Positions 831 through 47,400 of a DNA stretch of 64,000 nucleotides are shown here, one piece after another (position 1 is the first letter of the stretch; every line of letters begins with the position of its first letter). Below the pieces are notes generated by a model. The model was not told the origin of the DNA. It was given only the letters and a program-made list of their open reading frames with translations, and searched no databases. This DNA comes from Tubulanus polymorphus. Taxonomy: Eukaryota > Animalia > Nemertea. A program made the translations under genes and the position numbers. Location: positions 21,012,950 through 21,076,949 of the forward strand of contig NC_134029.1 in the NCBI RefSeq assembly GCF_964204645.1. The letters run 5' to 3'.

Positions 831-1500
831 ATGCGAAGAAATAATGATGATACGGTTCGTCAATATTAATTATTCAATATATCATTAGATCAGCCTATAA
901 TGACTACTATACATATGTGATAAGGTATCATTCAAATCTAAGTAATGTATATAAAGCTTAAATTATATAACTTAAATATCATATTATATTATTTACTGTA
1001 AGGAACATTCAATTGTCTGTAATTACTAGATAATTTATAAAAGTGTTGTGTGTATTGATTGATATGATGTGGTTGTATCTCTTTATATAAATCTCAGTTT
1101 TTTACGCGTGTCAATAAATAAATGCATTTTTCATAACAATAAATGCTAGTTTTTAGTCTAAATTTGGATATGAAAATTAATCATCTCTATATCAACGGTT
1201 TATTATCCACTGAGGACCGAAGGAAACTGTTTAAAGCCAAAAATAGCCAAAAGAAAGTAGTGAAAGTCCCTATCGATCGGCCCCTTCGGTATTGAATTTA
1301 CACCTCCCTGGTAACGGGCAGTTTTCGGTTTGAACCAGCGTGCTAGCGCATAACGACGCTTAACAAACAGGTTATTACTTACATGAAATACACTACATTA
1401 ATGACAGAAAGGAGCTAAAGATTAGTCTTTTGATTTAGTGCAATGACGTAAAAGAATCACTCTGAAATTTTTAACTGAAAGAGTGCCACTTGCAAGGAAC

Positions 1501-4429
1501 TGTAGCGGAAATTCCGTGATGATGTTATAGGCGCCAAATTTAAATCACTTTCTTGCCTGCATAGCAGTTTTATAACCGGGCCAGAGCGCCAGTTTTGAAT
1601 CCCTCATGTATCGCCACAGATAGCGTCTAATATTTATAGATCCTTAAAATAGCACCAATTATTCAATTTCCTTATCCTTTATTCCCGTTTATAACCTGGT
1701 TACCTTTCTTACTGCGTTGCGGGACGAACTCAGCTCGCGTCCGGTCGAGTTGTGTTCGTTGGGGGATTTTACACAGACTATGTTGTCTTACCGTCTTTAT
1801 AACTATTCGGCGGAACCAGTTGTTCAAGAAATCAAACTGCTCTTAAAGCACATCAGTACGTCTTAAATCTTCTTACCAATACGTTCGTATTTATATCCTA
1901 ACGATGTTATATTGTGATATATGAATTCCGCTCTAGTGAAGTCGAGTAGCGCCCGGATTCGGGCCGGTTCAATTTGGTACTCCGCGGTGCCGACCGCTTG
2001 AGTGCTCCCTCTTTCGGTGAACTACATTTTTTTTGTAACTAATTGGAAGTTAAATATTCTCTTGATAATAAATCTTTTTCTTTTCGGAGTTTTTAATGCT
2101 CGACTCGGACCGGAGTTCGTATAAATAAATCTATGCTTGTAGGTTCCGATCGAGCGACGTCGTGGACGGCGGTCAGTCACGCGTGATCGTGACGTCACGC
2201 CGTACCACGTGATTTTCAACCTATTGGAGCGTAGCGGGGACAAAGGCGGGTAGCCAATCAGGACAACGCGGGGACAACGAGCCCTATATAAGGCGGGCAG
2301 CGCGCTAGTTTGGGATTCTGACCTGAGCGTCGACCACTCGCATGGTTCAATTTAGCTCTCTCTAACCAACGGATACTATATTCCAAGTTACAATGTAAGC
2401 AAGTTGTAGGCCTACCTCCCGCGTCCCGACGGGGACCGGGTTTCCTTTCCTCGGGGGGATGTGATTGAATTACGTTGCTTTTATTATTGGTAATTGTTAT
2501 TGTTTCCGTGCCGCGAGGTCCTGATTGTCCCCGGCCCTCCATGTTATTCTAAACTTCTGTAGTATTCGCCAATCATCACTGCGATAGTATTAGGTTGTCT
2601 CCAACGACAGCCCTTGTTTAAAGCTCTACCTAAGGTAATTCCCGTCCCGGGTGGGTGGATTTTGGCGATGGTGACTGGTTTGGGTAGGTTATTTCGGTCT
2701 CAGTCCGTTGACGGTCCAGATAGCTAGGCTATTGAAGACGACGAGGGTTATTGGTGCGGATGGTTCAGCCGCCTACGGGATTTGCCGGGTCCGGAGAGGA
2801 CGTCTGATGTCGATGGTTTGACCACCTACGGGAATGGTATATTGGTCCACGGAAAAGCGAAGAGAGCGAAGAATGGGGTCTGCCGGTCAGCCGTTAGACG
2901 AGAATCTGCAGAGACTGAGTTCCAGTCGGGTGCTGGCACTGTCGCCGATTTCTTCCCTCCCCTCCTTAAGCATTAATCGCCTTAATCATAGGGCATTACC
3001 CGTCCTATTCCACGAGAAGTATTATCGATCGACGATCGATCCCTCTAGTATTAAAATACGGACATTAGGTATTATTCTAACGAGTTTCCACATCATTGTG
3101 ATGCTGGGACTGGGGCACAGCGAGGACTATTCCTCTCTGTCTCCCAGTCGCTCGAAATACCTCACGCTTGAGTTCTAATTCGAGTTAGATGATAATCGGG
3201 CAGCTAAGCCGTTTGACTTTAGTAATGCGCCGGCGGGACCTAACCGTTTCGGCTATATCCGCCTCGCGTTTCAACCATTTATGCAATGCATCGTTGTAGA
3301 GTCGAATTTTATTCGGGGTCGCCTAGGCCTCGTTGCATTTATTTCCGCGGGCGATTTCGCGTGCGGTCCTTAGTATTTTTCTTAAAACTGAGTTGAGAGA
3401 GAAGGGTGAGGGAATATCATTTTTGACGGTATTTTATTTCGTTGGGTCACTTGACCCCCCTTGAGTTTCGGAATTTGTCGGGTGACGATCAACCATGCTG
3501 CCAGTGGTAGTCCAGGTCGAAACCAAGTCTCCCCTTGATGTCTTACTGCCTAAGAGGACCAGAGATGAGTGGCCCGAAGAAAGAAGGGCGGACCAGGGAA
3601 CTGATCAGTCCCTGCGTCGGACCACCAGTGAAGGCGAATTCCAACCAAGATGAAGAATCCCTGTAGTGGTAGTTCAAGAGGAGGCATTATCGAGTCGGTC
3701 CTTGGCCGGGTTCAGATATTGGGATCTGCTCATCGTCACCGACATTTCCGCTTCGGACTCAAGCCTTTTAATTATTTGACTCTCATAGTTCAACCCCCCC
3801 CCCCCCTTTTCTCTCTCTCTCTCATTTTTGGGTGTGAGCCTAATCGCGCCTTCGTACAATATTATATCCGTGGAACATGATTAGTTCTACGAGCCGTCGT
3901 TATGCCTAAGGACCAGTTTATAAATGTTATAAACGTCCCTTGTTCCTGGGGATTTCCGAGAGTACACATATTTTATTACGAGTATTGGGAGATTGCTTTG
4001 ATCTTGAGTGACGAGCAACACCCCGTTCTTTTAATCCGTTGTTGAGCTGAATAAACATGGCAATCGTTAATTTTTCACGAATAACGGTCTTATGTCTTAT
4101 TTTGAGTGGATATCTGAGTCTGAGTCAGTTCGACCTGTTTCGGGAACAACCTTGGAATGAGGACGCGCTACCATGGAAACGAAAGGATTCCGAGTTGTTG
4201 ATGATCGCCTTCAAGTTAAGGACGATTGGACCCGAAGACCCACCTAGAATCGATAGGAGGCACGACGTGTAGAGGGGATCCCCGACGAAGTTATTTGGCC
4301 CGGCCCGTGCGTTAGGGAGGCCAAGCTGTAGACCAGTACTGAGCGGCGGTATATTGTCTGGCGCAGCCATTGTGAGAAAATCTGGCCCGGAGAGCCAGTC
4401 GGTTACTGTGCCTGGCCTATTCGGTTACA
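1501..4429 (+). repeat. 5' LTR (2929 bp)
   Basis: Direct repeat of 10914-13840. Imperfect terminal inverted repeat TGTAGCGGAA...TTCGGTTACA. Followed by the PBS. Confidence 0.97.
2155..2320 (+). promoter_or_regulatory. LTR Pol II promoter (also present at +9413 in the 3' LTR)
   Basis: CRE TGACGTCA 2190-2197, E-box CACGTG 2206-2211, inverted CCAAT ~2223, GC box GGCGGG 2245-2250, CCAAT 2254-2258, TATATAA 2285-2291. TSS inferred at ~2315. Confidence 0.75.
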
Positions 4430-4432
4430 AAG

Positions 4433-4450
4433 TGGTGGCAGCGGTGGGAT
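4433..4450 (+). other. Primer-binding site complementary to the tRNA-Leu 3' end
   Basis: TGGTGGCAGCGGTGGGAT, 3 nt after the 5' LTR, is the reverse complement of the metazoan tRNA-Leu(AAG-type) end ATCCCACCGCTGCCA-CCA. Confidence 0.9.
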
Positions 4451-4729
4451 GCTTCGAGAAACACAGAGAAGAACTGACGCAGATGGAAACGGCGTTGAGA
4501 CCGGGATACCAGCCCCCTCAATTGTGTCGGACTCAGATATCTCACTTTTTTTAGTTAAAGAACCATTAATTCATATTTCTTTTGTGTCATGTTACACGTG
4601 TTGAATGGTTGCTCGTTGCTCTTGATAACCTGTTAAAATTTCTCTTGCTCGTTCCCGTAGGCAACCCTCATGACTATATACCCGTTCCTATTCCACCCTA
4701 ACGACTTTCCCCTTCCTCTAGCCAGCAAG

Positions 4730-5806
4730 ATGACTGATAGTAATAATACGGACAAAACCGTCGTCTCTGACGGAGAGGTAGAATATGAGACTACGACCCT
4801 TTTGAGTGGAGGAGACGGGCCTCAAGTAACCCCTGACTTTGGATCTTCTGATGACGAGGAGCCGATGGAGACTGCGGCCGAGGAGGAGGACGAGGACTGT
4901 GACCCGAACGAGAAGGGTGATGACAGACGCGTTCAATTCCGCTTGTCCCAGACTGAGCGGCAGAAACGTTACCGTATACGTCGCCCAGCGACCACGCCGG
5001 ACCGGTATGACGGGAAGACTAGTTGGACTGAGTTTGAGGCCCACTTTGACTCCGTCGCCTCCCTTAATAATTGGGACGACGACGAGAAAGCAATATACTT
5101 GGCCGTAAGCCTGAAGGGCGAAGCTCAACAAGTCTTGCGGGAGTTGACAATGGAGGAACGCAGAGACTATCGGTGCTTAATTTCGGCACTACAACTTAGA
5201 TTTGGTCCTAAGGTCAGAGAGGAATTATATACCGCGGAACTGAGAGCCAGAGTACGACGGCCGGGAGAGAGTTTACAGGAGTTAGGTCAAAGCATAAAGA
5301 ATCTAGTAGCCCGCGCGTATCCGGCCTCGGATAGAAAGACTAAAGACGCTCTCGCCAGATCCCACTTTATGGATGCCCTACAAGAGTCTGAGATGCGTAT
5401 GCGTCTGTTCCAAGCGAGCCCGAAGACCTTGTCGGAGGCAATCACCGCCGCCCTGGAGGTGGAAACGTTCCGTCGAATAGAGGCCCGCCGGGATACGAAT
5501 CACGTCTCCGGTAAGAAAGCGGCTGCTGCAGCCAGGAGTATTGCCGCCCAGCACCAAGACTCGGCGATGAAAGACGTCAGAGACCAGCTGGAGAAGCTAA
5601 CCGAACAGATGACCGCGTTAGCAGCTAAACTGGACACGAAGGCCGACAAAACTTCACCACCCAGGCAGTCAGCGCCCACCAATTACCAGTCTCGCATCAC
5701 CTGCTACAGCTGCGGACAACCAGGTCACATTTCGCGCAACTGCAATCAAAATCGCCCGGGAAATGCTTCCTCTCCGGTGCCAGGGGGCGTGGGCCGGAGA
5801 CAGTAG
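4730..5806 (+). CDS. gag: Gag (capsid domain + CCHC zinc knuckle)
   Basis: WDDDEKAIYLAVSLKGEA gag motif and CYSCGQPGHISRNC knuckle. ATG 4730 (CAAGATG) follows a splice-acceptor-like tract; an upstream in-frame ATG exists at 4670. Confidence 0.92.
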   Translation: MTDSNNTDKTVVSDGEVEYETTTLLSGGDGPQVTPDFGSSDDEEPMETAAEEEDEDCDPNEKGDDRRVQFRLSQTERQKRYRIRRPATTPDRYDGKTSWTEFEAHFDSVASLNNWDDDEKAIYLAVSLKGEAQQVLRELTMEERRDYRCLISALQLRFGPKVREELYTAELRARVRRPGESLQELGQSIKNLVARAYPASDRKTKDALARSHFMDALQESEMRMRLFQASPKTLSEAITAALEVETFRRIEARRDTNHVSGKKAAAAARSIAAQHQDSAMKDVRDQLEKLTEQMTALAAKLDTKADKTSPPRQSAPTNYQSRITCYSCGQPGHISRNCNQNRPGNASSPVPGGVGRRQ

Positions 5807-5826
5807 ATCAAATCGAGCAGCCCCCT
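5758..5826 (+). other. -1 ribosomal frameshift signal (slippery heptamer + pseudoknot)
   Basis: G GGA AAT at 5758-5764 in X XXY YYZ register with gag. The -1 frame is open into pol. Stem 1 TCTCCGG 5771-5777 / CCGGAGA 5794-5800; stem 2 AGGGGGC 5782-5788 / GCCCCCT 5820-5826. Confidence 0.8.
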
Positions 5827-8800
5827 CCAACAAACATCGTCCGGATTGCTAATTGCCACCCCGATAAAATCGCCGATAATGGACTTTACATAATTACCGA
5901 GATAGGACAAGTTCAGATGGCCCTCTTGGTAGATACTGGCGCCTGCCGAACTATACTCTCAAGAGCCGCATACGAAGCTATACCCAAGTCACACCGACCA
6001 CGGCTCAAACCATCCGACTTGAAACTTTTCGGACCAAGTAACAGCAAAATAACTGTTGGTGGGGTAACCACTTTGACCTTCCCGTTAGGTCAAAAACCGT
6101 TAAGGATTGACGTCATCGTCGCGGATATCGCTGGCGACGGGATTTTGGGGATGGACTTTCTGAAACGAACCGGCTCGTACCTGGATGTGGGTAATTCGTT
6201 GCTATTTTGCGGTAACGAAGAGATCGTCTGCCACACGAAGAATTCATTAGAACCCGAAACCGAATTATTAGCGAGGACCCTGGAAGCGATAGAAATACCA
6301 GCTCGACACCAGATGGTCATACCCACTTCTATCTCTGGGGATTCCGATATTCCATCGTTTGGTATCATCGAGGGTACAGGACGATACGAGGGCGGAGATC
6401 TGGCTGTGGCCCGAACACTGGTCGACACTCGAGAGCGGAGTTCCACTTGTGTTCGAGTGATGAATTTGGGATACAGCCCTATCCTTCTTCCGCAGTCTAC
6501 AGTCCTGGGAAGACTCATTACCGTTTCCACGATTCGAACCGTTGAGATGGAAGAAAAGAACTCAGAATCCGAAGAACCTAATGCGAACCACGACATTCCA
6601 GAACACCTGGAAGAACTGTATCAAGCCAGCGTAAAGAACCTCAGCCAGGAAGACGCTCCCTTGGTGGCGGAGCTACTGATTAAACATGCTTCAGCTTTTT
6701 CGGAAACCGATGAAGACCTGGGAAGGACAGATTTGGTCACCCATGAGGTGGACACCGGGAATCACCCACCCATACGACAGGCGCCGAGACTTCCTCCCCT
6801 GACCAAACGCAAGGAAACAGAGAATTTGATCGAAGACATGCATCGCCGCGGGTTGATAGAGAGGTCCCGGTCCCCCTGGTCGTCCCCGATTGTATTGGTG
6901 ACCAAGAAAGACGGAAGCACACGTTTCTGCGTGGACTATCGCCGACTAAACGAAGTAACGACCATAGAAAGCATGGCTATCCCGAATATCAATCGTTCGC
7001 TGGAATGTCTGGGAGGCGCCGTCTGGTTTAGCACCCTAGATCTGAATTCCGGTTATTGGCAAGTTACGTTGAGCGAGGACGCGAAACAGAAGTCCGCCTT
7101 CATTACGCAGAGTGGATTGTGGGAGTTCACTGTTCTTCCTTTCGGTATGTCCGGAGCTCCGGGAACCTTCGAAAGATTGATGGAAATGGTCTTAACTGGG
7201 CTCCAGTGGGAGATTTGTTTAATATACCTCGACGACGTGTTGGTGTTTAGTAGCTCCGTTAAAGAGATGGTCGAACGGTTGGACCTCATCTTCAGTAAAT
7301 TGGAAGAAGCCGGACTCAAACTTAAACCCCGCAAGTGCTCGCTTTTCCAGCGGTCGGTAGTTTTTCTCGGGCACGTGGTTAGTCACGAGGGCATACAGAC
7401 AGACCCGTCCAAGATCCAGTGTATACGGGATTGGCCAACGCCCAGAAATGTCAAGGAAGTTCGTAGTTTCTTGGGCCTTGCCACTTATTACAGGAGATTC
7501 GTCGCCGGTTTCGCGAAGATCGCGGGCAGCCTCCACAGACTCACGACTAAAGACCAAGATTTTATCTGGGGGGACGAGCAGGAGCAAGCTTTCCGGGAGC
7601 TGAAAGAGAAGTTGACCAACGCACCCATCCTAGCATACCCGAATGTCACGGACCCGTATATATTGGATTGCGACGCTAGTGCCTTCGCCATCGGAGGCGT
7701 GTTGAGTCAGGTGCAAGGAAACGAGGAACTCCCGATCGCATTTGGAAGTCGCACGCTCAACCGCGCGGAACAGAACTACTGCGTGACTCGGCGTGAATTA
7801 TTGGCGGTCGTGTTCTTCGTGAAGCATTTTAAGCACTATCTCTACGGACAAGATTTTCTCATCCGCACTGATCACAGCGCCCTCCGTTGGCTGATGAATC
7901 TGAAGGAACCCGAAGGTCAAATTGCCCGTTGGCTGGAAGCCTTGTCGACTTATCAGTTTCGGATTGAGCACCGTCCCGGAGTAAAACACGGTAACGCTGA
8001 CGGGTTATCGAGGATGCCGTGTAAGCAGTGTGATAAGATAGGGTATATACACGTGATCGAAGACGGAGTCGTCGAATCTCAATTAGATGAACCGTGGGAC
8101 TTAGAGGAGCTCAAGTCAGCTCAGAGAACCGACGAAGATCTAGAGTGGGCGATCGACGGGTTGATAGCCGGCATCTCCAAGCCACCGTGGCGAGACGTCT
8201 CAGATAAGAGTACCAACGCCAAACGATATTGGGCTCAGTGGGAGCTTCTATCGTTCAACAACGAGATTCTATTCCGGGAGTGTAGATCTGAGGATGGATT
8301 TTCCCAACTGATTGTTCCTCCGAATTTCCGTCGTACTATTTTTCACCAACTCCATTCGGCTCGTACCGGGGGACACCTAGGGATCGAGAAAACTCTTTCC
8401 AAGTTACAACAGAGGTATTACTGGCCCGGGATGAGAGAAGATATTGAGTTATGGGTGAAGCAATGTGAGCTCTGTCCTCGGAAGAAACCCCCGGCAAAGA
8501 AATTTCAGGCTGAACTTCAGATTTACAACGTAGGAGCACCCATGGAGCGTATCGCCGTAGATATTATGGGCCCCCTCCAGGAGACCACGGCCGGCAACGT
8601 CTATGTCGTCGTTGCTATGGACTATTTTACCAAATGGGTTGAATGTTACGCTATTCCCAATATGGAGGCCGAGACGGTAGCCAACAAACTAGTGACAGAG
8701 TTTTTCAGCCGTTTTGGCGTACCTCGTGAGCTCCATACTGATCAGGGTTCGAATTTTCAATCCAAATTATTCAAAGAAGTCTGCATCCTCCTCGGTATAA

Positions 8801-9507
8801 AACAAACCCGCACTACTCCATACAGGCCCCAGAGTGACGGTATGGTCGAGCGTTTTAACCGCAGTCTGATATCGATGCTGTCCCTGATGTCTGCCGATGA
8901 CCCCTTCGACTGGGATTTACAGTTGCCGTTCGCTGCGATGGCTTATCGTGCGGCTAGACATAATACGACTGAAGCCTCTCCGAACTATCTGATGTTGCTG
9001 CGGGAGGTAGATCTCCCCGTAGACCTCATAGTTGGCCTTCCGCCTAAAGACAAGTTCCCGTCGACCACTGAGTACGTCAGCCAGCTTCGGAAACGGATGG
9101 AGACAGCCCACCGCGATGCCCGGAAAGCGTTAGCAAAGAATACTCTTCGTCAGAAGAATCTCCATGACCAACGACGTTATGGGAAACCATATGAGGCCCG
9201 GGACCTTGTGTGGCTGTACCAACCGAAAATCACGAGCGGAAATCCCAACCGGAAGTTTCAGTTGAATTGGACAGGACCATACACCGTCTTACAGAAGCGC
9301 TCTGAAACAGTCTACGAAATACAAGATATGCCGACCAACGCCCCCAAAATAGTACATTATGACCGACTAAAGCCTTATCTGGGAACCCAGTACCTGGGTT
9401 TAAATCACGACGCAACCGAGCTGACTGTAACTGACACTCCTACTTCCCAACGGAGGAGCTCGCGGGTTCCTACTCAACGACGGGATGAGTCCTTTCTGTA
9501 CCTTTAG
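5758..9507 (+). CDS. pol: Pol polyprotein (protease, reverse transcriptase, RNase H, integrase with GPY/F motif)
   Basis: LVDTGA protease, YLDD at 7225-7236, LDCDAS RNase H, HHCC and DDE integrase motifs (VDIMGP, HTDQG, VER), WTGPY. Frame is open from the slippery site; first Met at 5917. Confidence 0.97.
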   Translation, partial: GKCFLSGARGRGPETVDQIEQPPPTNIVRIANCHPDKIADNGLYIITEIGQVQMALLVDTGACRTILSRAAYEAIPKSHRPRLKPSDLKLFGPSNSKITVGGVTTLTFPLGQKPLRIDVIVADIAGDGILGMDFLKRTGSYLDVGNSLLFCGNEEIVCHTKNSLEPETELLARTLEAIEIPARHQMVIPTSISGDSDIPSFGIIEGTGRYEGGDLAVARTLVDTRERSSTCVRVMNLGYSPILLPQSTVLGRLITVSTIRTVEMEEKNSESEEPNANHDIPEHLEELYQASVKNLSQEDAPLVAELLIKHASAFSETDEDLGRTDLVTHEVDTGNHPPIRQAPRLPPLTKRKETENLIEDMHRRGLIERSRSPWSSPIVLVTKKDGSTRFCVDYRRLNEVTTIESMAIPNINRSLECLGGAVWFSTLDLNSGYWQVTLSEDAKQKSAFITQSGLWEFTVLPFGMSGAPGTFERLMEMVLTGLQWEICLIYLDDVLVFSSSVKEMVERLDLIFSKLEEAGLKLKPRKCSLFQRSVVFLGHVVSHEGIQTDPSKIQCIRDWPTPRNVKEVRSFLGLATYYRRFVAGFAKIAGSLHRLTTKDQDFIWGDEQEQAFRELKEKLTNAPILAYPNVTDPYILDCDASAFAIGGVLSQVQGNEELPIAFGSRTLNRAEQNYCVTRRELLAVVFFVKHFKHYLYGQDFLIRTDHSALRWLMNLKEPEGQIARWLEALSTYQFRIEHRPGVKHGNADGLSRMPCKQCDKIGYIHVIEDGVVESQLDEPWDLEELKSAQRTDEDLEWAIDGLIAGISKPPWRDVSDKSTNAKRYWAQWELLSFNNEILFRECRSEDGFSQLIVPPNFRRTIFHQLHSARTGGHLGIEKTLSKLQQRYYWPGMREDIELWVKQCELCPRKKPPAKKFQAELQIYNVGAPMERIAVDIMGPLQETTAGNVYVVVAMDYFTKWVECYAIPNMEAETVANKLVTEFFSRFGVPRELHTDQGSNFQSKLFKEVCILLGIKQTRTTPYRPQSDGMVERFNRSLISMLSLMSADDPFDWDLQLPFAAMAYRAARHNTTEASPNYLMLLREVDLPVDLIVGLPPKDKFPSTTEYVSQLRKRMETAHRDARKALAKNTLRQKNLHDQRRYGKPYEARDLVWLYQPKITSGNPNRKFQLNWTGPYTVLQKRSETVYEIQDMPTNAPKIVHYDRLKPYLGTQYLGLNHDATELTVTDTPTSQRRSSRVPTQRRDESFLYL

Positions 9508-9586
9508 GCCTAGGCGGTTCGCCGACTCCTACCCTAACTCAACGCTTTACTTATGTGGGACCCGGCTGTTCTTTTCTTTTCTTTAG

Positions 9587-10619
9587 GACGCGAGAGAAGT
9601 GCCACGGATGCCATTATCACTTCCGTGACTCGGCAACTTTGCAGCGACACCAGGAGACGTGTGACTCGATCGCACGCGTTGGAGTCTCCTATCGATGCAC
9701 CGCGTGCGGGAAGACGGGCTCTCGGGCCGATTCTATCCGGAGACATGCGCGCCGGGATCACCGAACCCCGACTAAGGTCTTAAAAGTCGTAGAGGAACTC
9801 TGGGACCAGCCTCCCCGTGTCTCCCTGGGTGAGGGCGAACCACCAACGAAACGCGCGAGAGATAATTCTTCGTCGGAGCCGCAAATCGTTAATTCTTCGT
9901 CGGAGCCGCAAATCGTTAATTCTCCGTCGGAGCCACAGATCGTTAATTCTTCGTCGAAGCCGCACACCGTTAATTCTTCGTCGGAGCCGCAGATCGTTAA
10001 TTCTTCGTCGAAGCCGCGCACCGTTAATTCTCCGTCGGAGCCACAGATCGTTAATTCTTCGTCGAAGCCGCACACCGTTAATTCTTCGTCGGAGCCGCAG
10101 ATCGTTAATTCTTCGTCGAAGCCGCACACCGTTAATTCTTCGTCGGAGCCGCAGATCGTTAATTCTTCGTCGAAGCCGCACACCGTTAATTCTTCGTCGA
10201 AGCCGCACACCGTTAATTCTTCGTCGAAGCCGCTCACCGTTAATTCTTCGTCGAAGCCGTACACCGTTAATTCTTCGTCGGAGCCGCAGATCGTTAATTC
10301 TGCGTCGAAGCCGTACACCGTTAATTCTTCGTCGGAGCCGCAGATCGTTAATTCTTCGTCGAAGCCGCTCACCGTTAATTCTTCGTCGGAGCCGCAGATC
10401 GTTAATTCTTCGTCGAAGCCGCGCACCGTTAATTCTTCGTCGGAGCCGCAGATCGTTAATTCTTCATCGAAGCCGCTCACCGTTAATTCTTCGTCGGAGC
10501 CGCAGATCGTTAATTCTTCGTCGAAGCCGCGCACCGTTAATTCTTCGTCGGAGCCGCAGATCGTTAATTCTTCGTCGAAGCCGCGCACCGTTAATTCCCC
10601 TTCGCGTGCCGTTCTGTAG
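9587..10619 (+). CDS. ORF3: accessory protein with C2HC + C2H2 zinc fingers, PxVxL motif, NLS-like PPTKRAR and a Ser-rich 9-aa repeat tail; lacks its own ATG
   Basis: CHGC-x12-H-x3-C and CTAC-x12-H-x4-H. Preceded by branch point CCCTAAC (9532-9538), a polypyrimidine tract and AG (9585-9586). The listed ORF start at 9555 is GTG. Confidence 0.75.
9864..10592. repeat. Tandem array of 27 x 27-bp units with two mostly alternating unit types
   Basis: Type A AATTCTTCGTCGGAGCCGCAGATCGTT (NSSSEPQIV); type B AATTCTTCGTCGAAGCCG(CAC/CGC/CTC/TAC)ACCGTT (NSSSKPxTV). Total 729 bp. Confidence 0.97.
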
Positions 10620-10894
10620 AAAGATGGCGGTCGCAGCCGAGATCGATTGGGATCCGCCCGCGCGTAGTTCTTCGGCGCCTTTCGGTGAGGTGCATGTGCA
10701 CCCGTTGCCGCTGGGAGATATGATCATCTATGGATTCGACGACATGCCCGTCGACTGCGTAGCGTGCGAGATTGAAACGTCTTACGCTTAACTTTCGAAC
10801 CGGTCGTCGGTCGTTCTTACATATAAAAAAAAAAAAAAAACCTTCTTATCGCATTATATCATGTTACTTTCTTTCTTTCTCACGCGGGACGCGT

Positions 10895-10913
10895 GAAGGC
10901 TGGGAGGGGGTGG
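10895..10913 (+). other. Polypurine tract
   Basis: GAAGGCTGGGAGGGGGTGG directly before the 3' LTR. Preceded by hairpin TCACGCG-GGA-CGCGTGA (10880-10896). Confidence 0.85.
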
Positions 10914-13840
10914 TGTAGCGGAAATTCCGTGATGATGTTATAGGCGCCAAATTTAAATCACTTTCTTGCCTGCATAGCAGTTTTATAACCGGGCCAGAGC
11001 GCCAGTTTTGAATCCCTCATGTATCGCCACAGATAGCGTCTAATATTTATAGATCCTTAAAATAGCACCAATTATTCAATTTCCTTATCCTTTATTCCCG
11101 TTTATAACCTGGTTACCTTTCTTACTGCGTTGCGGGACGAACTCAGCTCGCGTCCGGTCGAGTTGTGTTCGTTGGGGGATTTTACACAGACTATGTTGTC
11201 TTACCGTCTTTATAACTATTCGGCGGAACCAGTTGTTCAAGAAATCAAACTGCTCTTAAAGCACATCAGTACGTCTTAAATCTTCTTACCAATACGTTCG
11301 TATTTATATCCTAACGATGTTATATTGTGATATATGAATTCCGCTCTAGTGAAGTCGAGTAGCGCCCGGATTCGGGCCGGTTCAATTTGGTACTCCGCGG
11401 TGCCGACCGCTTGAGTGCTCCCTCTTTCGGTGAACTACATTTTTTTTGTAACTAATTGGAAGTTAAATATTCTCTTGATAATAAATCTTTTTCTTTTCGG
11501 AGTTTTTAATGCTCGACTCGGACCGGAGTTCGTATAAATAAATCTATGCTTGTAGGTTCCGATCGAGCGACGTCGTGGACGGCGGTCAGTCACGCGTGAT
11601 CGTGACGTCACGCCGTACCACGTGATTTTCAACCTATTGGAGCGTAGCGGGGACAAAGGCGGGTAGCCAATCAGGACAACGCGGGGACAACGAGCCCTAT
11701 ATAAGGCGGGCAGCGCGCTAGTTTGGGATTCTGACCTGAGCGTCGACCACTCGCATGGTTCAATTTAGCTCTCTCTAACCAACGGATACTATATTCCAAG
11801 TTACAATGTAAGCAAGTTGTAGGCCTACCTCCCGCGTCCCGACGGGGACCGGGTTTCCTTTCCTCGGGGGGATGTGATTGAATTACGTTGCTTTTATTAT
11901 TGGTAATTGTTATTGTTTCCGTGCCGCGAGGTCCTGATTGTCCCCGGCCCTCCATGTTATTCTAAACTTCTGTAGTATTCGCCAATCATCACTGCGATAG
12001 TATTAGGTTGTCTCCAACGACAGCCCTTGTTTAAAGCTCTACCTAAGGTAATTCCCGTCCCGGGTGGGTGGATTTTGGCGATGGTGACTGGTTTGGGTAG
12101 GTTATTTCGGTCTCAGTCCGTTGACGGTCCAGATAGCTAGGCTATTGAAGACGACGAGGGTTATTGGTGCGGATGGTTCAGCCGCCTACGGGATTTGCCG
12201 GGTCCGGAGAGGACGTCTGATGTCGATGGTTTGACCACCTACGGGAATGGTATATTGGTCCACGGAAAAGCGAAGAGAGCGAAGAATGGGGTCTGCCGGT
12301 CAGCCGTTAGACGAGAATCTGCAGAGACTGAGTTCCAGTCGGGTGCTGGCACTGTCGCCGATTTCTTCCCTCCCCTCCTTAAGCATTAATCGCCTTAATC
12401 ATAGGGCATTACCCGTCCTATTCCACGAGAAGTATTATCGATCGACGATCGATCCCTCTAGTATTAAAATACGGACATTAGGTATTATTCTAACGAGTTT
12501 CCACATCATTGTGATGCTGGGACTGGGGCACAGCGAGGACTATTCCTCTCTGTCTCCCAGTCGCTCGAAATACCTCACGCTTGAGTTCTAATTCGAGTTA
12601 GATGATAATCGGGCAGCTAAGCCGTTTGACTTTAGTAATGCGCCGGCGGGACCTAACCGTTTCGGCTATATCCGCCTCGCGTTTCAACCATTTATGCAAT
12701 GCATCGTTGTAGAGTCGAATTTTATTCGGGGTCGCCTAGGCCTCGTTGCATTTATTTCCGCGGGCGATTTCGCGTGCGGTCCTTAGTATTTTTCTTAAAA
12801 CTGAGTTGAGAGAGAAGGGTGAGGGAATATCATTTTTGACGGTATTTTATTTCGTTGGGTCACTTGACCCCCCTTGAGTTTCGGAATTTGTCGGGTGACG
12901 ATCAACCATGCTGCCAGTGGTAGTCCAGGTCGAAACCAAGTCTCCCCTTGATGTCTTACTGCCTAAGAGGACCAGAGATGAGTGGCCCGAAGAAAGAAGG
13001 GCGGACCAGGGAACTGATCAGTCCCTGCGTCGGACCACCAGTGAAGGCGAATTCCAACCAAGATGAAGAATCCCTGTAGTGGTAGTTCAAGAGGAGGCAT
13101 TATCGAGTCGGTCCTTGGCCGGGTTCAGATATTGGGATCTGCTCATCGTCACCGACATTTCCGCTTCGGACTCAAGCCTTTTAATTATTTGACTCTCATA
13201 GTTCAACCCCCCCCCCCTTTTCTCTCTCTCTCTCATTTTTGGGTGTGAGCCTAATCGCGCCTTCGTACAATATTATATCCGTGGAACATGATTAGTTCTA
13301 CGAGCCGTCGTTATGCCTAAGGACCAGTTTATAAATGTTATAAACGTCCCTTGTTCCTGGGGATTTCCGAGAGTACACATATTTTATTACGAGTATTGGG
13401 AGATTGCTTTGATCTTGAGTGACGAGCAACACCCCGTTCTTTTAATCCGTTGTTGAGCTGAATAAACATGGCAATCGTTAATTTTTCACGAATAACGGTC
13501 TTATGTCTTATTTTGAGTGGATATCTGAGTCTGAGTCAGTTCGACCTGTTTCGGGAACAACCTTGGAATGAGGACGCGCTACCATGGAAACGAAAGGATT
13601 CCGAGTTGTTGATGATCGCCTTCAAGTTAAGGACGATTGGACCCGAAGACCCACCTAGAATCGATAGGAGGCACGACGTGTAGAGGGGATCCCCGACGAA
13701 GTTATTTGGCCCGGCCCGTGCGTTAGGGAGGCCAAGCTGTAGACCAGTACTGAGCGGCGGTATATTGTCTGGCGCAGCCATTGTGAGAAAATCTGGCCCG
13801 GAGAGCCAGTCGGTTACTGTGCCTGGCCTATTCGGTTACA
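10914..13840 (+). repeat. 3' LTR (2927 bp)
   Basis: Matches the 5' LTR. The only difference seen by eye is a C-run of 11 versus 13, shifting the offset from 9413 to 9411. Confidence 0.97.
13461..13466 (+). terminator. Probable polyadenylation signal of the retrotransposon (5' LTR copy at 4050-4055)
   Basis: The only AATAAA I found in the LTR downstream of the TATA box; followed by U/GU-rich sequence. Confidence 0.55.
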
Positions 13841-14196
13841 GAACTTAAGAATGATCAATCTGAATAGAAAGTTGGTACCGTATACGTTTTGCACAGAAAT
13901 ATGCATTGTGGAATAGTTGATTATAACCGCAGATGAACCGAGCCGGAACCGGCCTCGCGGGTGTGCGGTCACATAAAACCTTTATCGGTATATGTAGATA
14001 CTTAGCTCGATTGCATTATTTATTCGATAGACGGCGCCAAAGTCGGTGAATCATTGTGGAGCAATGCGGAAGTAATGATTAAATCGGAGACTTGCGGGAA
14101 TTGTTTCAGAATATTTGTCTATGATTTAAGTGAATGAATACGTCGTGAATTAATCAGTTAAACGCTCATTGTACGAATGAATGACACGCGTGAAGA

Positions 14197-17100
14197 ATGG
14201 CCAGCGAAAAACGAGAACGCGTTAAATTCGGGCATCATGACAGCGGAGTTAGTTCTTCAGTTGATGACAGCTCGTCGTCGTCGCAGTCCGAAGCAACCAG
14301 TCCGGTATCGACTACGTGCGCTTCGTCAGTCGGTGCCTTCACCGATCCGAAACAAGTGGACATGAAAACTGCCGACTCAAATTCGAATATGTCGACGGAT
14401 TCTAGCGACACGATGACCGACTCGGCGTCCTTGATCGCACGAGCTTCGAATGATAATTCTTCCGTCACGTTGTCTATGCAAAGTTCGTTAAGTTTCGACG
14501 AAGCCGACGGACACCTACCGCTGAACGCGTCGGAGTTCGCGGTGACATATCTCGGTAATCTGGTATTGGACCGACGCTACACTCAACCGATGCTTCCGTG
14601 GGTAATGGCCGAAGTGCGTCGTCGAAACGACGTGCTGTTCGTGAATCTGGAAATATGTCGCAACTATCTGAAAGCTCGACGGATGGACAACGGCGAGTTA
14701 CACTTCGAACATCGGCTTCAGAGTTTGTCGCGATTCGCGAAAACCCACCGTGACCCGAAATGTTTCGCTTATTTGACGCGACCGAATTCCGATTCGCCGT
14801 TTACGTGTCATGTTTTCGAAGCTTCGAGTGAATCCGATGTAAGTATGTGTAATGTCTACAAATGTCTGGCGTCGTGAAAACGTTTTAAACTTCAATCGTC
14901 TTAGTTTGAATTGTTGCCCATATTGAAAGTAACCAATAGCGATTAAACCGACGATTTGCGTTTAACTTTTTCTTGAAACTCGACCCGAGGCTTGATTTCG
15001 GCAGTATCCCATTGGGTGCTAGATTTTTTGTTGGGATATACTAAAACTTGAAATGAAACTGATTTCGCCCTTAGAAAGGCAAACTGAGATATCAACGCTT
15101 TGACACCTTGATGGGATACTGACAAAGAGATGATACTCTCTAGGATTGTTTAAATCGAGCATTGTTCATATAATTTGATTACTAAATATTTAGATTTAGA
15201 GGTGCACAGTTTAGGTGCCCCTAACCTAGCCTTAACCCTTAGTAATAGATGTGCCTAATATCTGGAAGATGACCTACTTTATTCAGAAGACTCGCCAGTT
15301 ACCCTGAATTGAATGCATGACCTTGGAGTAATTACACCAAGGTATGACTACGGTTCACCATAAAAAACCACACTTTTACTCAAGGAACAATTGTTATTTT
15401 TAAGCAACCTTTGAATACTCGTGTCCCCAAACTTTATTCAACCTGACCTAGGTAGTATTATTAGGACTCTATCTCTTGTACAATTCCGATAACAAAGGTT
15501 TATCAAATCCCCGAGTTACCCACGTTATCTTATCAACCTTATATGGAGGGTCTAAAAGCCAGACGTTATTGTTTCTGTATACTGGCGTAGTTGAAATCCA
15601 AACAAATTACTTTTCTCAAAATTTATCCCGATATTTTCTAGAGAGGGTGCGAGCTTATCAATGAGGAATATTGATTCGTATGAAATATACAGTCTGTAAT
15701 CTTGAGCAGTCTGTAGACTAGGCCTATATGAGTAGCATTAATTCTCCATTGTGTCACCGTTGTTGGACACAATAGGAAAATTTGCTTAATCAACAGAAAA
15801 AGTGATAGTATTTTTGTCCCCATGACTCATCAGAGCGAAGGGGGCTTTACCATCCATCCGTTCGTAGGTTTCTTTTGTACGGAATACGGGCATCTGTGGA
15901 TAGAATCTTATGAAACTTTATGATATGATGTCAGATCATGAAGGCAAAGCACGAGCCCTATTGATTTTGGAGGTTCAACCTTTCAAGATGACTGGTTCGG
16001 TTGGCCTTTTACAATAATGGAACTGTTCGTACCTATTCCGTAGTTGAACCGACAGGTTTTCTGCCTTTTCATCGGGTCAACTCCTCGATATCCTGAGACC
16101 CACTTTCTTCATTCGTATCCCTTATGGTATTCATGCCATGGACATTTTGTTGTTTTCGTGTCATCAAACAAGCATGTGATTCAATCGCAGCATTGTTTTT
16201 CGATTAATTACATATAATCTATAGTATTATAGCTAGCCCGGGTTCAGGTAAGCCTACAGCTGTGTCTGCGCAGTGAACCCTCTAGACGAGAATGTAATTA
16301 CCACTTAGAATCGCAGTATGAGGTGAAAAGCCATGTATAACACTTCGAAAATGTTGTTGTTTATTTACTATAAAATCGATGCGTTTTTCTCGCGGCAAGC
16401 ATTAGAAAATTTGATGTTTTATCAATAGATCAATACTGCGCCGTGTTTGATGATGATGGCATCGCGATGTAAGCACGATTCTCCCTAGACTTCCAATAAT
16501 GTTTATATATCGGTACAAAAATGTACAATGTGTTCATATATAAATTACGACTTGCTCTGTTCACACCCACCCTCTTTCACTAAGGCAAAACATACATTTT
16601 TGGATTTGTATCATGATCGGTCCAACTGTAAGTTTGTTTTCTCGGTGTTCATTCGTTTGGACAAGATTTTCATTTTCCTTTCCTCGAATTGATATATTTC
16701 AGGTGCCGCACTTGTTCAAAGTCATTCGGGAGGCGACGAAGGTCGCGGTTAAAGACCACCATCAACACACGGGGCGCGAAGGTCGTCAGGTGGAGAACAT
16801 GGGCGAGCTGATGCGCGCCGGATACCAATTCTTCGAGGTTCTCTACACGGGCCGAGTTCGCGTTTCGCAGAAGAACGCCCCGCCAACGTTCATCGACGAT
16901 ACGGTGAATAAATTCCTCGAGCAGCAGAAATTGAAAGCCGAAGAGGCCGCCACCGCCGTCGCGAAAGAGGCGAAACTCGACGACGGCCGGGAACGCCACA
17001 GTAGCGGAAACAGCGTACGAAGTTTGCCGAATAGTTTAGAAAACGCGGTCAACGTGAAAGAAAACGAGTTGAAAGAAAGCGAGGATAAAAGCAGCGACGG

Positions 17101-42900: not shown

Positions 42901-44465
42901 TTTACATCGTCAATCCCTCCCAGTCATCAAGCAGTTTTTGGCTTCCGCGTCTTAGAATAGGGATTGACCCTGCTATTTATTTGATCGGTAGATTTTGTAT
43001 GATCTTTATAATTTGGTGTCCCTTACAAACCCACCACACCTGCCGGGAGCGAAACAGGGGGTTTGATTTTGAAATCGGAAATCGAAGTACGGTTTTAACC
43101 GACGGAAGCTGCACTGTGACTGAAAAAAAACAAACCGCTTCTGACGTTCGCGTCATAGTCGATCTAAACACTTATTTTGCGACAGTTACAACCATCACCG
43201 CGCATCGCCAAGTCGACCCTTGAAGTATTTGTATAGAGGAGTATCAGCATTGATTAATAAGCACTTTTAGCTTGTGAAAAATCGTCAAATAACCAATGCA
43301 TTATAAGAACCATGCAACAAAGTATTCTTTATTCTGTATATAAAGAAAAACGAATAATTATTCACAGTCAGCACTAATCCTGACGACTGCTTATACGTAT
43401 ATGCTATAATTATGACATATTACGCTCCATTACAGTCCATTATTTTTATGTTACGGGAAGACTATGATATTTGTCCGCGAAATGATTATATTTTCACTGG
43501 ATTGTATTTTTAATTTCATGTCCGTTCCGTCGTCCCAATAAGAGCCTATCGAATATACATACACCGAATATTTTGCGAATGTGATAGGGTGTAAAAAAAA
43601 AATCGACTTAGCGATAGGCGTATTTGTATGAGGTAGATTTTGCCGGCGAAATTTCATAAATTTCATGCAGAAATAATTCACCTGCTGTCAGTGCGCTGAA
43701 AGCGTCGGTACTGTTATTCTCGTTGTCGTAATTCAAGCGTGTTTCAATTATTGCTTGTTTAATCGGTGTTGTAGATAAATAAATCTCATTCGTCTGTTTA
43801 ACCTCGACCAGTACTGGTTTTACGTTAGCGCTATGCTGAACGTACTAGCACGCGGGGCCTAATACCTACTGGGCCCCTATGTCTCTAAGCAAGCATTTCG
43901 TATATACATAAGATTGTGCTCGACCACTTTGAAGACATCGTAGAAGATTTACCGGAATTTTAACTCTTCAAGTTTGAAGTAAGCGATATTTAAAGTGTCG
44001 TGTATTTATCTAATCAAATATACTTGTTTAAATGTCAAATCATTGTGACCAGTCACCACATTGAATGTACACCAAATGTATATCAAGAGAAAATTAGATG
44101 ACTTTTTAAAAACTGGCCTAACTGTTATTTTGTTATTATTTGAAGTTCAGCGTATTCTGAACGTTACAAATTAAATAGATTTATCAAATTGAAATGAGGT
44201 TAAAACCTTTATTTGCAGTCAAGGCACCCCATGAATATATCAATTATTTTGTTAATCCAAAAACTATTCGTAGTACAACCTGCCACTTCCATTGAATATC
44301 TGAACATTAAATGATTTTTGGAAATATTAGGAAACGAATTATTCAAGTTTGAATTCAAAACTCAAAACAAAAAGTCGTTTGTACTTTCTATGGTATAATT
44401 TAGATGTTCGTTTCTCGAAATATAGAACGCCACAGATTTTCAGAAAGTATGATTTTGATTTCAGA

Positions 44466-47400
44466 ATGGCTGAAACTGACGTGTCTGGTAGAAGGAGAAG
44501 CAGTGGAATGCCTGTAGATATGGATTTATCTAGGAGACGCAGTAGCGCCACACACGCTGAAAATTCCGGCACCAAACCGAAGAAAACTTTCGAATTCCGC
44601 ATGTGTAAAAAAGTGGCCGAATTGACGCAAGTCGTTCATATGTTATTCGTCAGAAACCACGAGAAGGAAGTCGAATTGGACGCGCTTAAGGAAGCTTACG
44701 AAGAGGAAATCGACGCGGTAATAAATGACGCTAAATCCAGAATCGCAAAACTGGAAGGTAAGATCAACGAACTCGAACAGCAGTCGAGTTTAAACGACGG
44801 CCGATCGAAAACGCTGCTCGAATCGGAATTAGCGAAGAAAGACGCCGATTGGTTACAAAAAACTCAGAATTTAGAAAAAATCGTGGCCGAGGAGAAATCC
44901 GAAAATCAGAATATGAGAGATTTGTTGATAACGGCGCAAAAAGACATTGAACAGTTGAGAAGCGCGATAGAAAGCGAAAATCTATCGAAATGTTCCGAAA
45001 TGGAATCGCGCGATTCCGAGATCGATCGGCTCAAGAGAAACGCGCAAAATTTAAAAGATCGAATAAAAGATAGCGAGATTATGACGGAGAGGAAAATTCG
45101 CGAGTTGGAACTGTCGAATTCTCGTCTGCAAAACGACATGACTCAATTACAGGATCTATACGACGAAACCCGCCGCACCCGCGACCAATACTCACAGAAA
45201 ACGAAACAGTTAGAAAACGAACTGAAAACTGTCCGTAAAAACTTCGGCAGACGAATTAGCGAGGTGGTTACCAACCAGAACGGTGTTACATCCAAGAGAA
45301 AACAGAGCGAACCGTCCGTGCTCGTGAGTATATTCATAAATAATCCGTAAAAAGTAGAATGTACGTACATATTCAATACGCAATGCTGCTAGAGCCTCTG
45401 GCAACAGTTTTATATCTATACTGCATAATACGGTATGAATGTATTATTTGAAATGTTCGGACTTTTAGGTAACTCCGAATGCAAAAAATGGCGCCATAGT
45501 TCCAGGTTTTATGACCGTCGAGGTAATTCGTGTGACGCGTTTGTGGAGTTGTCGTTCATGAATTTGAGAGCTGCGATCATGTTTGTCATTGATCGCAAAC
45601 TAATCGTTCAATCACTCGTGTAAAAGTTTAAAAAAACAGTTACATTAAAATGAGGCGTGTGAGGTGGAACTGAGCGTAGTATCCCTTCTTGGGGGATTTT
45701 TTTTCCAATGGTTGGGGTCAAAGTCGAGTGTGTGTTAAGGCTTTTTAATGGTGAAGGTACTACTAAACTATGGCACAGTTTTTTAACGATCTATATAATC
45801 CAGGTGATTTGAATATTCCAGGCAAGTCTTGTTTCATTCCTGGACGAAAAACAGTCATGCGATGGTTCCGGGGTTTGTTATGATGAGTAGGAACTTTCTC
45901 AGCTTAAAGCGCTTATATCGGGTGGAATATAACTCTTTATTCGTAGTACCACTTTGCCCAGTGTTGCTAGCTCTGCACCTTTAGGAGATGATGGTCTCTC
46001 TCTTCTTTTGTCCAGAATATTCACCTTCCTGGGAAATCAGAGATTTTTCCATGTAATTTAGATGAATGAAAACAATTCATTTGTACTGCGCGTATGATTT
46101 TCCACCCGATATGAACTCGCTTATTTGCCACACACCGCTTAGAAGAGGACCAATGTATCGACACCCGCGAGCATGCTTTTCTATTGCAGCTCTTTGCCGC
46201 CAAAATAACGACTGCAAGAGTAGACTTTGAATAATTAGCACTTTTTCTATTTCTTCTACACATTTATATTGAAAGAAGAATGCGGATTGCTAGTACAGCG
46301 TATAGTTTTATGACGTATTGCTTAATTGTACAGTAGACTAACCAAGTCGGATCGGATAACCGTTTTTTCAATTCGGATGTTTTTTTACCCCAGTGAAGTT
46401 CATTACTTGTTCCTTATTCCTTAACATGTTACTTGTTCCTTATTGGGAGATGAATTCTCAATAAGTAACGGAATAAGGAATAAGGAACAAGTAATGAACT
46501 TCACTGGGGTTGTTTTTATTTTCTGGGGCACTATATATGAAATACATAACGACCAACTGGGATATAACTCAAGTCGGACGGTCCCAACAGATGCGACTTG
46601 AGTGAAGTCTACTGTAGCAGTGATGTTTTCCAAAGCAAACGATTCAATTAGTCGCACGGGTTAATCGATATTTCATTACATCGTAATCAATTTCTATCAA
46701 TGTAGGATTATAAACAAGAACTGGAACGTATGAGAAAAGAATTGCAGCGTTATCGACTGGAACTATCGAACCGCGAAGGAAATTTCAACCGGGTCTTCTC
46801 CGAACATAAACCTGTTCACGTTGATTCGAGAGCGGGTCGAATAGGTCTACAGCAGCAACAGTTCTTCCATACACAAAGCGCCCAAAATTTTAGGTATGTG
46901 ACTTTAAAAAGCGAATTGCGTGTAGTTTCTAGCAATTTGTGTGAGATAAATTGCTCAATTCGAATATAGTTATAATCATGTTACTACTTATGTTTGATTT
47001 GATTTCAAATTTCAACACCTAAGTTGATTTTCACTATGTACATTAAAACTACAGGATCCAGTTCCACAGTTGTGAGTTGAAATTTGATTTGGAATAAATA
47101 CATTGTAAATGGACTGATTTTAACTCACAACTGTGGAACCGGGTCTAGATTAAACCTCGCCCAACTCGTCAAACTGGCCTGGGATCGGCATAATCGAACA
47201 GAGATTTACGAAATCCGAGTTAACGACAGGAAAATACGTCATGAAGTCAGAAAACTGAATTCGTTTTTGTTCCGAGTCAAATGTCAGAGATTACTGCACG
47301 AGTCCTCTCTCCGCTCAGATCGATAGTCAAAAATCCTCAGTTTCCTCTTGCTCCTTGTTTTTCAGTCATTATACGAAGCCGCAGACGTTGCGACCAGAGA

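What the first reader, a model, noticed from the sequence alone, without database searches (positions are those of the whole stretch)
2315..10619. Gypsy element with a zinc-finger accessory gene whose start codon is built by splicing from the LTR
Seen: in the env position there is an ATG-less ORF encoding two classical-type zinc fingers (CHGC..H..C and CTAC..H..H) and an NLS-like PPTKRAR. It is preceded by a textbook 3' splice site: CCCTAAC 9532-9538, CTTTTCTTTTCTTTAG|G, exon start 9587, phase 2. About 80 nt after the inferred TSS the LTR has a donor, ...TTACAAT|GTAAGC (GT at 2395). Joining 2394 to 9587 gives ACA-ATG-ACG-CGA-GAG-AAG-TGC, an in-frame ATG with A at -3. The donor-like sites I checked in gag (~4826, ~5105, ~5511) are phase 0 or 1 and do not fit. 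Established: errantivirus env genes are expressed from spliced subgenomic RNAs, and complex retroviruses encode nuclear regulators this way. Inference: this is a complex retrotransposon encoding its own DNA-binding regulator instead of an envelope. Caveat: a 7-codon uORF (2342-2365) lies in exon 1.
Basis: partly seen in the sequence, partly recalled or inferred. Interest (0 to 1): 0.88.

Follow-up and report, generated by a model that had tools for sequence, protein, structure and literature searches.

The report
Retrotransposon carrying its own zinc-finger regulator
An intact virus-like jumping gene of an invertebrate carries, where retroviruses keep their envelope gene, an extra zinc-finger gene that many distant relatives also carry; splicing likely builds its start codon, and its protein is predicted to bind and control the element's own promoter.

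Summary
The sequence features are there. The element is an intact 12.3-kb Ty3/gypsy retrotransposon (1501-13840, 2.9-kb LTRs). After pol lies a Met-less frame with two zinc fingers and 27 nine-residue repeats, behind the element's best splice acceptor. The first strong donor after the TATA box supplies AT and gives an in-frame ATG. A splice-built AU|G is already known from Drosophila gypsy/springer env, so that part is not new. The gene itself looks new: 25 of 91 related loci (35-52% pol identity) carry a finger frame after pol (opposite strand 7, shuffled 0.6), mostly behind an acceptor with their own ATG. The site predicted from the two fingers is the top-ranked of 4096 triplet-pair patterns in the element's own U3 (6 sites, 1.1 expected); the spacer was chosen afterwards and a test in one relative failed. 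Ten paper searches found no description; Repbase, Dfam and GyDB were not searchable. The scan noted other finger-bearing accessory genes on other DNA, not this one.

The parts
1497..1500 (.). 4-bp target-site duplication (second copy 13841-13844)
1501..4429 (+). 5' LTR, 2929 bp, TGT...ACA; differs from the 3' LTR by one 2-nt gap only
1936..2303 (.). six U3 sites of the pattern GYG-NN-GYC predicted from the two fingers (1936, 1984, 2154, 2189, 2262, 2296); two contain a CRE-like core
   Evidence: recognition code recalled
2254..2291 (+). promoter: CCAAT box 2254-2258, TATATAA 2285-2291; start site inferred near 2315
   Evidence: sequence; inference
2315..2394 (+). predicted leader exon, ending in AT; holds uORF 2342-2365
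   Evidence: untested by RNA
2395..2400 (+). predicted splice donor, first strong GT after the inferred start; stronger donors follow at 2635 and 3406 but bring no ATG
4050..4110 (+). poly(A) signal AATAAA with CA and a GU-rich stretch downstream; would make R about 1.75 kb long and lies inside the predicted intron
   Evidence: inference
4433..4450 (+). primer-binding site (tRNA-Leu type; assignment recalled)
4640..4729 (+). two strong acceptors before gag (exon starts 4661 and 4722, the latter with CCCTAAC branch motif); 32 ATGs lie in the unspliced leader
4670..5806 (+). gag (ATG 4670 or 4730), one CCHC knuckle; phase-2 donor at 5005; -1 slippery heptamer at 5758
5629..9507 (+). pol: protease, RT, RNase H, integrase in gypsy order, no chromodomain, open throughout
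9532..9586 (+). branch motif, pyrimidine tract and AG: best acceptor of the element
9587..10619 (+). ORF3 exon, no Met of its own
9600..9761 (+). finger 1 (C2HC, 9600-9662) and finger 2 (C2H2, 9696-9761)
9840..9860 (+). short basic patch, possible nuclear localisation signal
   Evidence: sequence; motif recalled, untested
9863..10597 (+). 27-nt tandem repeat, 27 copies, Ser/Pro-rich nine-residue units in the ORF3 frame
10624..10791 (+). possible 55-codon ORF4 with a strong ATG context, 4 nt behind an acceptor whose TAG is also the ORF3 stop; no Pfam hit, no relative found
10902..10913 (+). polypurine tract
10914..13840 (+). 3' LTR

Best explanation
This intact Ty3/gypsy retrotransposon carries a third gene for a two-zinc-finger protein that is likely made from a spliced RNA whose leader exon in the LTR would supply the AT of the start codon, and the protein is predicted to bind repeated sites in the element's own promoter and so to regulate, most likely stimulate, its transcription. 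Shown: the frame, the fingers, the splice-site sequences, the recurrence of a finger gene after pol in distant relatives, and the excess of the predicted site in U3. Inferred: the start site, use of donor 2395 (about 0.7), translation past the uORF, nuclear entry, binding to U3 (about 0.55) and the direction of the effect. The same donor likely also splices to the gag acceptor (4722 or 4661) and, by binding U1, would silence the poly(A) site at 4050 in the 5' LTR, as in foamy viruses.
For: Frame has no Met and no slippery site links it to pol, yet sits behind the best acceptor. Donor 2395 is the first strong GT after the TATA box and the only one of 11 leader donors tested that yields an in-frame ATG. 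Host genes in the window end 2 of the 4 exons inspected with T before GT (exon ends inferred from translation). The built start leaves 5 residues up to the first Cys, as in L021, L024, L029 and L109. 25 of 91 related loci with at least 500 nt after integrase have a finger motif there on the sense strand, 7 on the opposite strand (4 of them near-copies), 0.6 in shuffles; 23 of 25 have their own ATG and 15 of 25 a T-rich acceptor within 20 nt of it, against 9-12% of other ATGs. Five more protein families read from pol straight into a finger pair. L095 also lacks a Met before its fingers. Among other copies in the host, 9 of 16 listed differences in the exon are silent, 27% expected, the branch motif is kept in a diverged copy, and a replaced stretch changes length by 3 nt. 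Finger helices match DNA-binding fingers (weak fold matches, none at E <= 0.001). The site predicted before testing (GYG, gap, GYC) has 6 distinct U3 sites against 1.08 expected, 0 of 2000 shuffles; with a 2-nt gap it ranks first of 4096 patterns; the reverse order is not enriched; the two LTR promoters are the richest 300-nt windows of 425; none of 19 other LTR stretches holds more than one site. Precedent for AU|G starts: PMC2585583 and bioRxiv 2023.08.03.551782.
Against: The junction is unobserved. Donor 2395 is weaker than 2635, 3406 and 5511, and the gag donor 5005 fits the frame. A uORF precedes the start. The motif result is one case: the 2-nt gap was picked among four after the test, the code is recalled, 2 of 6 sites are CRE-like and may serve host factors (without them 4 against 1.0, P 0.0125), and the same kind of prediction showed no excess in the LTR of L116. 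Fingers from different branches are no more alike than unrelated C2H2 proteins and the label needs 10 changes on the tree, at least 4 forced, so one origin and one function are not shown. Two other host copies have lost the last His of finger 2 and carry frame-breaking deletions. Four near-copies (L118-L121), L102 and L116 lack a good acceptor. The acceptor count took the best of several ATGs per locus and related loci are not independent.
Confidence: 0.45

Rival explanations
1. The finger protein is real and spliced, but works on the element's RNA, like Cer1 CERV or retroviral Rev: it would bring unspliced genomic RNA out of the nucleus or balance splicing.
For: The element has several strong donors and acceptors and a poly(A) site inside its leader, so unspliced RNA needs help. 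CERV, the spliced 3' gene product of Cer1, does this (PMC10309623, passages). Some relatives have Arg/Ser-rich tails (L101, L104, L105). C2H2 fingers can bind RNA (recalled).
Against: The predicted DNA site is enriched in U3, which is not transcribed at the 5' end, and not in R (10 against 9.2). The window's tail is Ser/Pro-rich, not basic.
Confidence: 0.2
2. The start codon comes from gag: a leader splices to the gag acceptor, and the donor at 5005 joins about 92 acidic gag residues to the fingers, as in idefix env or CERV.
For: 5005 is phase 2 and gives an open fusion. Gag-peptide starts are described for idefix-subclade env and CERV shares exons with gag.
Against: The donor is weaker than 2395 (2.5 against 3.5); one of three gag donors in phase 2 is what chance gives; 23 of 25 relatives start ORF3 at an ATG right behind the acceptor, which points to a non-coding leader. 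A copy type seen in all three DNA runs lacks 4895-5644 and with it this donor.
Confidence: 0.15
3. The protein acts on chromatin rather than as a promoter factor: it tethers the integration complex or shields the element from silencing.
For: In five protein families the fingers are in frame with integrase; L001 has a PHD finger in the same slot; several of these frames begin with a Lys/Thr/Arg stretch that recalls the histone H3 tail (recalled).
Against: In the window ORF3 is out of frame with pol, without a slippery site. The H3 likeness got no PDB match and is not evident in the window's protein.
Confidence: 0.12
4. The fingers are a captured piece of a host gene carried along without use, and the AT before the donor is chance.
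For: No close relative of the window's ORF3 in two protein searches; fingers look generic; other host copies are broken in ORF3.
Against: Finger frames recur at the same place in 25 of 91 loci, open over hundreds of codons, with acceptors; silent changes are in excess; the frame stays open through 27 repeats.
Confidence: 0.08

Closest known systems
Drosophila errantivirus env, gypsy and the springer subclade (PMC2585583, bioRxiv 2023.08.03.551782, PMC13097621; passages read)
   Same: Third ORF after pol, made from a spliced subgenomic RNA; start codon built from a donor AU and an acceptor G.
   Different: There the product is a membrane fusion protein and the junctions are mapped; Springer's donor lies 43 nt downstream of the LTR. 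Here the product is a soluble finger protein and the donor lies inside the LTR, upstream of the poly(A) signal.
Cer1 CERV of C. elegans (PMC10309623; passages)
   Same: Ty3/gypsy element with a spliced non-envelope 3' gene for a nuclear regulator with a cysteine finger.
   Different: CERV shares exons with gag, acts in RNA export, has a C4-type loop and no homologues outside nematodes by that paper; no C2H2 pair.
Foamy viruses (PMC3694450; abstract and outline; the Tas transactivator is recalled)
   Same: Major donor inside the LTR upstream of the poly(A) signal; an accessory gene near the 3' LTR for a regulator of the own promoter.
   Different: True retroviruses with env; the transactivator is not a C2H2 protein (recalled); nothing here is tested by experiment.
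Non-envelope ORF3s of bdelloid rotifer and plant LTR elements; sORF1 of the 412/mdg1 group (PMC5408684, PMC7264820, PMC11952523; passages)
   Same: Extra, lineage-specific genes in LTR retrotransposons, some spliced, some nuclear.
   Different: Esterase, exonuclease, membrane or helix-turn-helix products; the term 'zinc' does not occur in the first two main texts.

Membership tests
Ty3/gypsy LTR retrotransposons (Metaviridae) | pol order protease-RT-RNase H-integrase | tested here: met
Ty3/gypsy LTR retrotransposons (Metaviridae) | two LTRs TG...CA, target-site duplication, primer-binding site, polypurine tract | tested here: met
Ty3/gypsy LTR retrotransposons (Metaviridae) | gag with CCHC knuckle | tested here: met
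Errantivirus | ORF3 is an envelope protein (signal peptide, furin site, transmembrane helix) | tested here: not met
   ORF3 has C2H2 hits only and no hydrophobic stretch
Errantivirus | ORF3 expressed from a spliced subgenomic RNA | not testable with these tools
   splice signals present; no RNA run available
Errantivirus | pol groups with insect errantiviruses | not tested
   no named reference sequences in the trees
Chromovirus | chromodomain at the integrase end | tested here: not met
   no chromo hit at E <= 1
Gmr1 clade | integrase before RT | tested here: not met
   feature from PMC2774666 passage
Named mollusc/annelid gypsy clades (MolGy, PolGy, C-clade) | placement in the RT/RNase H tree with the clade's references | not testable with these tools
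   motif look-ups in 13 of 14 listed supplements of PMC8556966 found nothing; one was a picture, file 13 was not searched
Classical C2H2 (Kruppel-type) fingers | Cx2C-x12-Hx3-5H with beta-beta-alpha fold | tested here: met
   finger 2 fits; finger 1 ends in Cys; Pfam above cut-off, model pLDDT 83-94 over residues 1-60
Classical C2H2 (Kruppel-type) fingers | TGEKP-type linker between fingers | tested here: not met
   4 residues longer than in designed finger proteins
Complex retroelements with an own transcriptional regulator (Tas/Tax-like) | accessory protein binds or acts on the element's own LTR promoter | tested here: inconclusive
   predicted site enriched in own U3; not repeated in L116; no binding assay
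Cer1/CERV-like | 3' ORF joined to gag exons; needed for RNA export | tested here: inconclusive
   donor 5005 would allow it; function not testable

The most novel reading that the evidence does not exclude
A wide, overlooked lineage of animal Ty3/gypsy elements are 'complex' retroelements: they encode their own C2H2 transcription factors in the env slot, express them from spliced RNAs and use them to bind their own LTR promoters. The finger class that hosts use to silence transposons would here serve the transposon, with fingers and LTR sites changing together from family to family.
Probability: 0.35. Interest if true: 0.85.

Novelty: new variant of a known kind. Interest (0 to 1): 0.66.

Why it matters
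Self-encoded transcriptional regulators are a mark of complex retroviruses; among animal LTR retrotransposons the papers read here describe CERV (RNA export) and a nuclear sORF1 of unknown role. A finger gene that recurs across a large invertebrate lineage, with a testable site in its own promoter, would add a sequence-specific regulator, give a simple system to study finger-site co-evolution, and bear on how C2H2 fingers move between hosts and transposons. The splice-built start codon is a known device and adds little on its own. One large mollusc survey limited LTRs to 1500 bp, so elements like this one, with 2.9-kb LTRs, would have been missed.

Tried and rejected
RNA test: no RNA holder listed; the one possible RNA run X4 gave no cover; no evidence either way. 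No whole genome is held, so copies could not be listed. Close homologues of ORF3: none in the word search (42 candidates, 188-601 aa only), only generic multi-finger proteins among the best 150 of 253 hits (17 read). Viral contigs gave no relatives. The ESM Atlas gave no answer. Foldseek gave no match at E <= 0.001. One origin of the fingers: not supported by profile scores. H3-tail mimicry of relatives' N-termini: no PDB match, no paper with the three terms; left as a recalled likeness. Frameshift from pol into ORF3: no slippery heptamer. Non-AUG start: GTG 9555 lies in the predicted intron, ACG 9588 has no support. Leader donors 2490-4444: none brings an ATG in frame. RNA structure of 2315-2700: no better than shuffles (z -0.2). 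Finger-site prediction for L116: no excess. Clade name: not obtained. Two papers on the finger code were not held, so the code stays recalled; only the contact positions -1, 2, 3, 6 are cited (PMC4592553).
Full report
The element. The finding lies in a complete LTR retrotransposon at 1501-13840. The LTRs (1501-4429, 10914-13840) differ by one 2-nt gap, with a 4-bp target-site duplication, a primer-binding site and a polypurine tract. gag and pol are open, overlap in the -1 frame at a slippery heptamer, and carry gypsy-order domains without a chromodomain. The neighbours are animal genes. DNA runs show further copies, from near-identical to under 90% alike. Named pol relatives come from a bivalve, a lancelet, arachnids and a psyllid at about 50% identity. 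I could not name the clade.

The observation. All stated coordinates hold. ORF3 has no Met. It encodes a C2HC and a C2H2 finger (Pfam above cut-off; confident model), a basic patch, and 27 nine-residue repeats that make up about 245 of 345 residues. Its acceptor is the best in the element; the second best sits before gag at 4722. The donor at 2395 is the first strong GT after the TATA box, but ranks 4th of 406. Stronger LTR donors (2635, 3406) bring no ATG; of 11 leader donors tested only 2395 does. Host exon ends in the window show that T before GT is tolerated (2 of 4).

RNA. No RNA holder was listed, so the junction is untested.

Is ORF3 a real gene? Yes, most likely. Of 159 loci fetched by pol similarity, 106 hold the integrase end and 91 have at least 500 nt after it. 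25 of the 91 have a finger motif there on the sense strand, 7 on the opposite strand, 0.6 after shuffling. One of the 25 (L024) was counted at a wrong place, but its real ORF3 has a finger and an ATG. The frames are mostly 170-600 codons long (L114 is cut at 56). 23 of 25 have their own ATG, 18 a YAG within 20 nt of it (background about half) and 15 a T-rich one (background 9-12%; inflated by taking the best ATG and by kinship). Five protein families read from pol into a finger pair. The usual design is thus acceptor, own ATG, finger, low-complexity tail. The window and L095 lack the ATG and need it from an upstream exon; P0111 looks so at protein level only. In the host, 9 of 16 listed differences in the exon are silent against 27% expected (P 0.014, not independent); a diverged copy keeps a branch motif; two copies have lost the last His and are frame-broken. 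Against a single family: fingers of different branches score no better against each other than unrelated C2H2 proteins, and on a tree of 67 rows (28 with, 27 without fingers, 12 unlabelled; five chosen loci dropped for short RT matches) the label needs 10 changes, at least 4 forced (quick tree, midpoint root). Ancient origin with losses and repeated capture both remain open.

What does the protein do? The contact positions -1, 2, 3, 6 (PMC4592553) read Arg, Asp, Ser, Arg in finger 2 and Asp, Ala, Thr, Arg in finger 1. By the recalled code this predicts GYG then GYC, with a gap allowed by the long linker. I set this pattern before testing. It is in excess in U3 and not in R, and only in this order. 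The excess comes from the 2-nt gap: first of 4096 triplet-pair patterns (strand pairs counted twice) in both the proximal 300 nt and all of U3; 6 distinct sites against 1.08, 0 of 2000 dinucleotide shuffles; 4 against 1.0 without CRE-like cores; the two LTR promoters are the top 300-nt windows of 425; 19 other LTR stretches hold at most one site. The gap was chosen afterwards, host factors could explain two sites, and the one relative that could be tested (L116) showed no excess of its own predicted site. This is a good lead for self-regulation, not proof.

Likely expression scheme (inferred). Transcription starts near 2315. The leader to gag is 2.4 kb with 32 ATGs and holds a textbook poly(A) signal at 4050. 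The donor at 2395 would serve three ends: suppress that signal in the 5' LTR as in foamy viruses (PMC3694450, abstract), splice to the gag acceptor, and splice to 9587 to build the ORF3 start. Unspliced RNA, which alone keeps the primer-binding site, would be the genome.

What is known. A start codon built from donor AT and acceptor G is described for D. melanogaster gypsy env (PMC2585583) and for the springer subclade, while idefix-type env starts with a Gag peptide (bioRxiv 2023.08.03.551782); Springer's donor lies 43 nt past the LTR (PMC13097621). Non-envelope third genes are known in rotifers, plants and Cer1. I found no description of a C2H2 third gene in animal gypsy elements in ten searches (listings seen), and 'zinc' does not occur in the main texts of three broad surveys (term look-ups only). 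Repbase, Dfam, GyDB, most subscription papers and preprint supplements were out of reach, and the large supplements of those surveys were mostly not read; any of these may hold the gene. The scan's own notes list other accessory genes with fingers on other DNA (antisense finger-OTU, fungal finger-JmjC, a large CERV-like frame), unchecked and not the same gene; look-ups by sequence found nothing.

Verdict. Observation confirmed; interpretation partly supported. A new variant of a known kind: a Ty3/gypsy lineage with a recurrent zinc-finger accessory gene, likely a regulator of its own promoter. The splice-built start is probable here (about 0.7), has precedent, and is the exception within the lineage. 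Interest 0.66.

Noticed in passing
window 10620-10791: A further acceptor, whose TAG is the ORF3 stop, is followed after 4 nt by an ATG in strong context and a 55-codon acidic frame with a CxxC pair: a possible second accessory gene. No Pfam hit, no relative in the first 80 loci.
   Followed up: partly
window 9793-10791: The repeat is also open in a second frame, as Arg/Ser-rich units that run into the 55-codon frame; no Met before the repeat.
   Followed up: no
window 13840-14200: The 3' LTR ends about 357 nt before the first Met of a same-strand host gene with two PTB domains (TBC1D1/4-like, name recalled); weak acceptors lie between, so the LTR promoter and donor could drive hybrid transcripts.
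   Followed up: partly
window 4894-5645: A copy type lacking 750 nt of gag stands in all three DNA runs: a deleted derivative of the family.
   Followed up: no
L012, L013, L017, L024, L029, L031, L036, L076: In one branch ORF3 holds a conserved helical domain of about 120 residues after the finger, with no Pfam hit; L076 has the domain without a detected finger.
   Followed up: partly
P0113, P0121, P0122, P0123 (after integrase): The finger frames begin with a conserved Lys/Thr/Arg stretch that recalls the histone H3 tail (recalled; no PDB match) and end in a second conserved block; pol and ORF3 are one open frame.
   Followed up: partly
L001 4559-4954: A relative has a PHD-finger frame in the same slot.
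   Followed up: no
L125 9115-11265; L131 (opposite strand after pol): L125 has a 716-codon ORF3 whose end looks like a TatD-type nuclease (by eye, recalled); L131 has an antisense two-finger frame.
   Followed up: no
L012, L013, L029, L031: The gag frame seems to open upstream of the primer-binding site, inside the LTR.
   Followed up: no
L081-L159: Many prokaryote bins in genome contigs hold animal retrotransposons, one bin over 25 loci: host DNA in the bins.
   Followed up: no
window 44331-45350 and 60484-60951: Host exons like FAM184 and PARP16/ARTD15.
   Followed up: no
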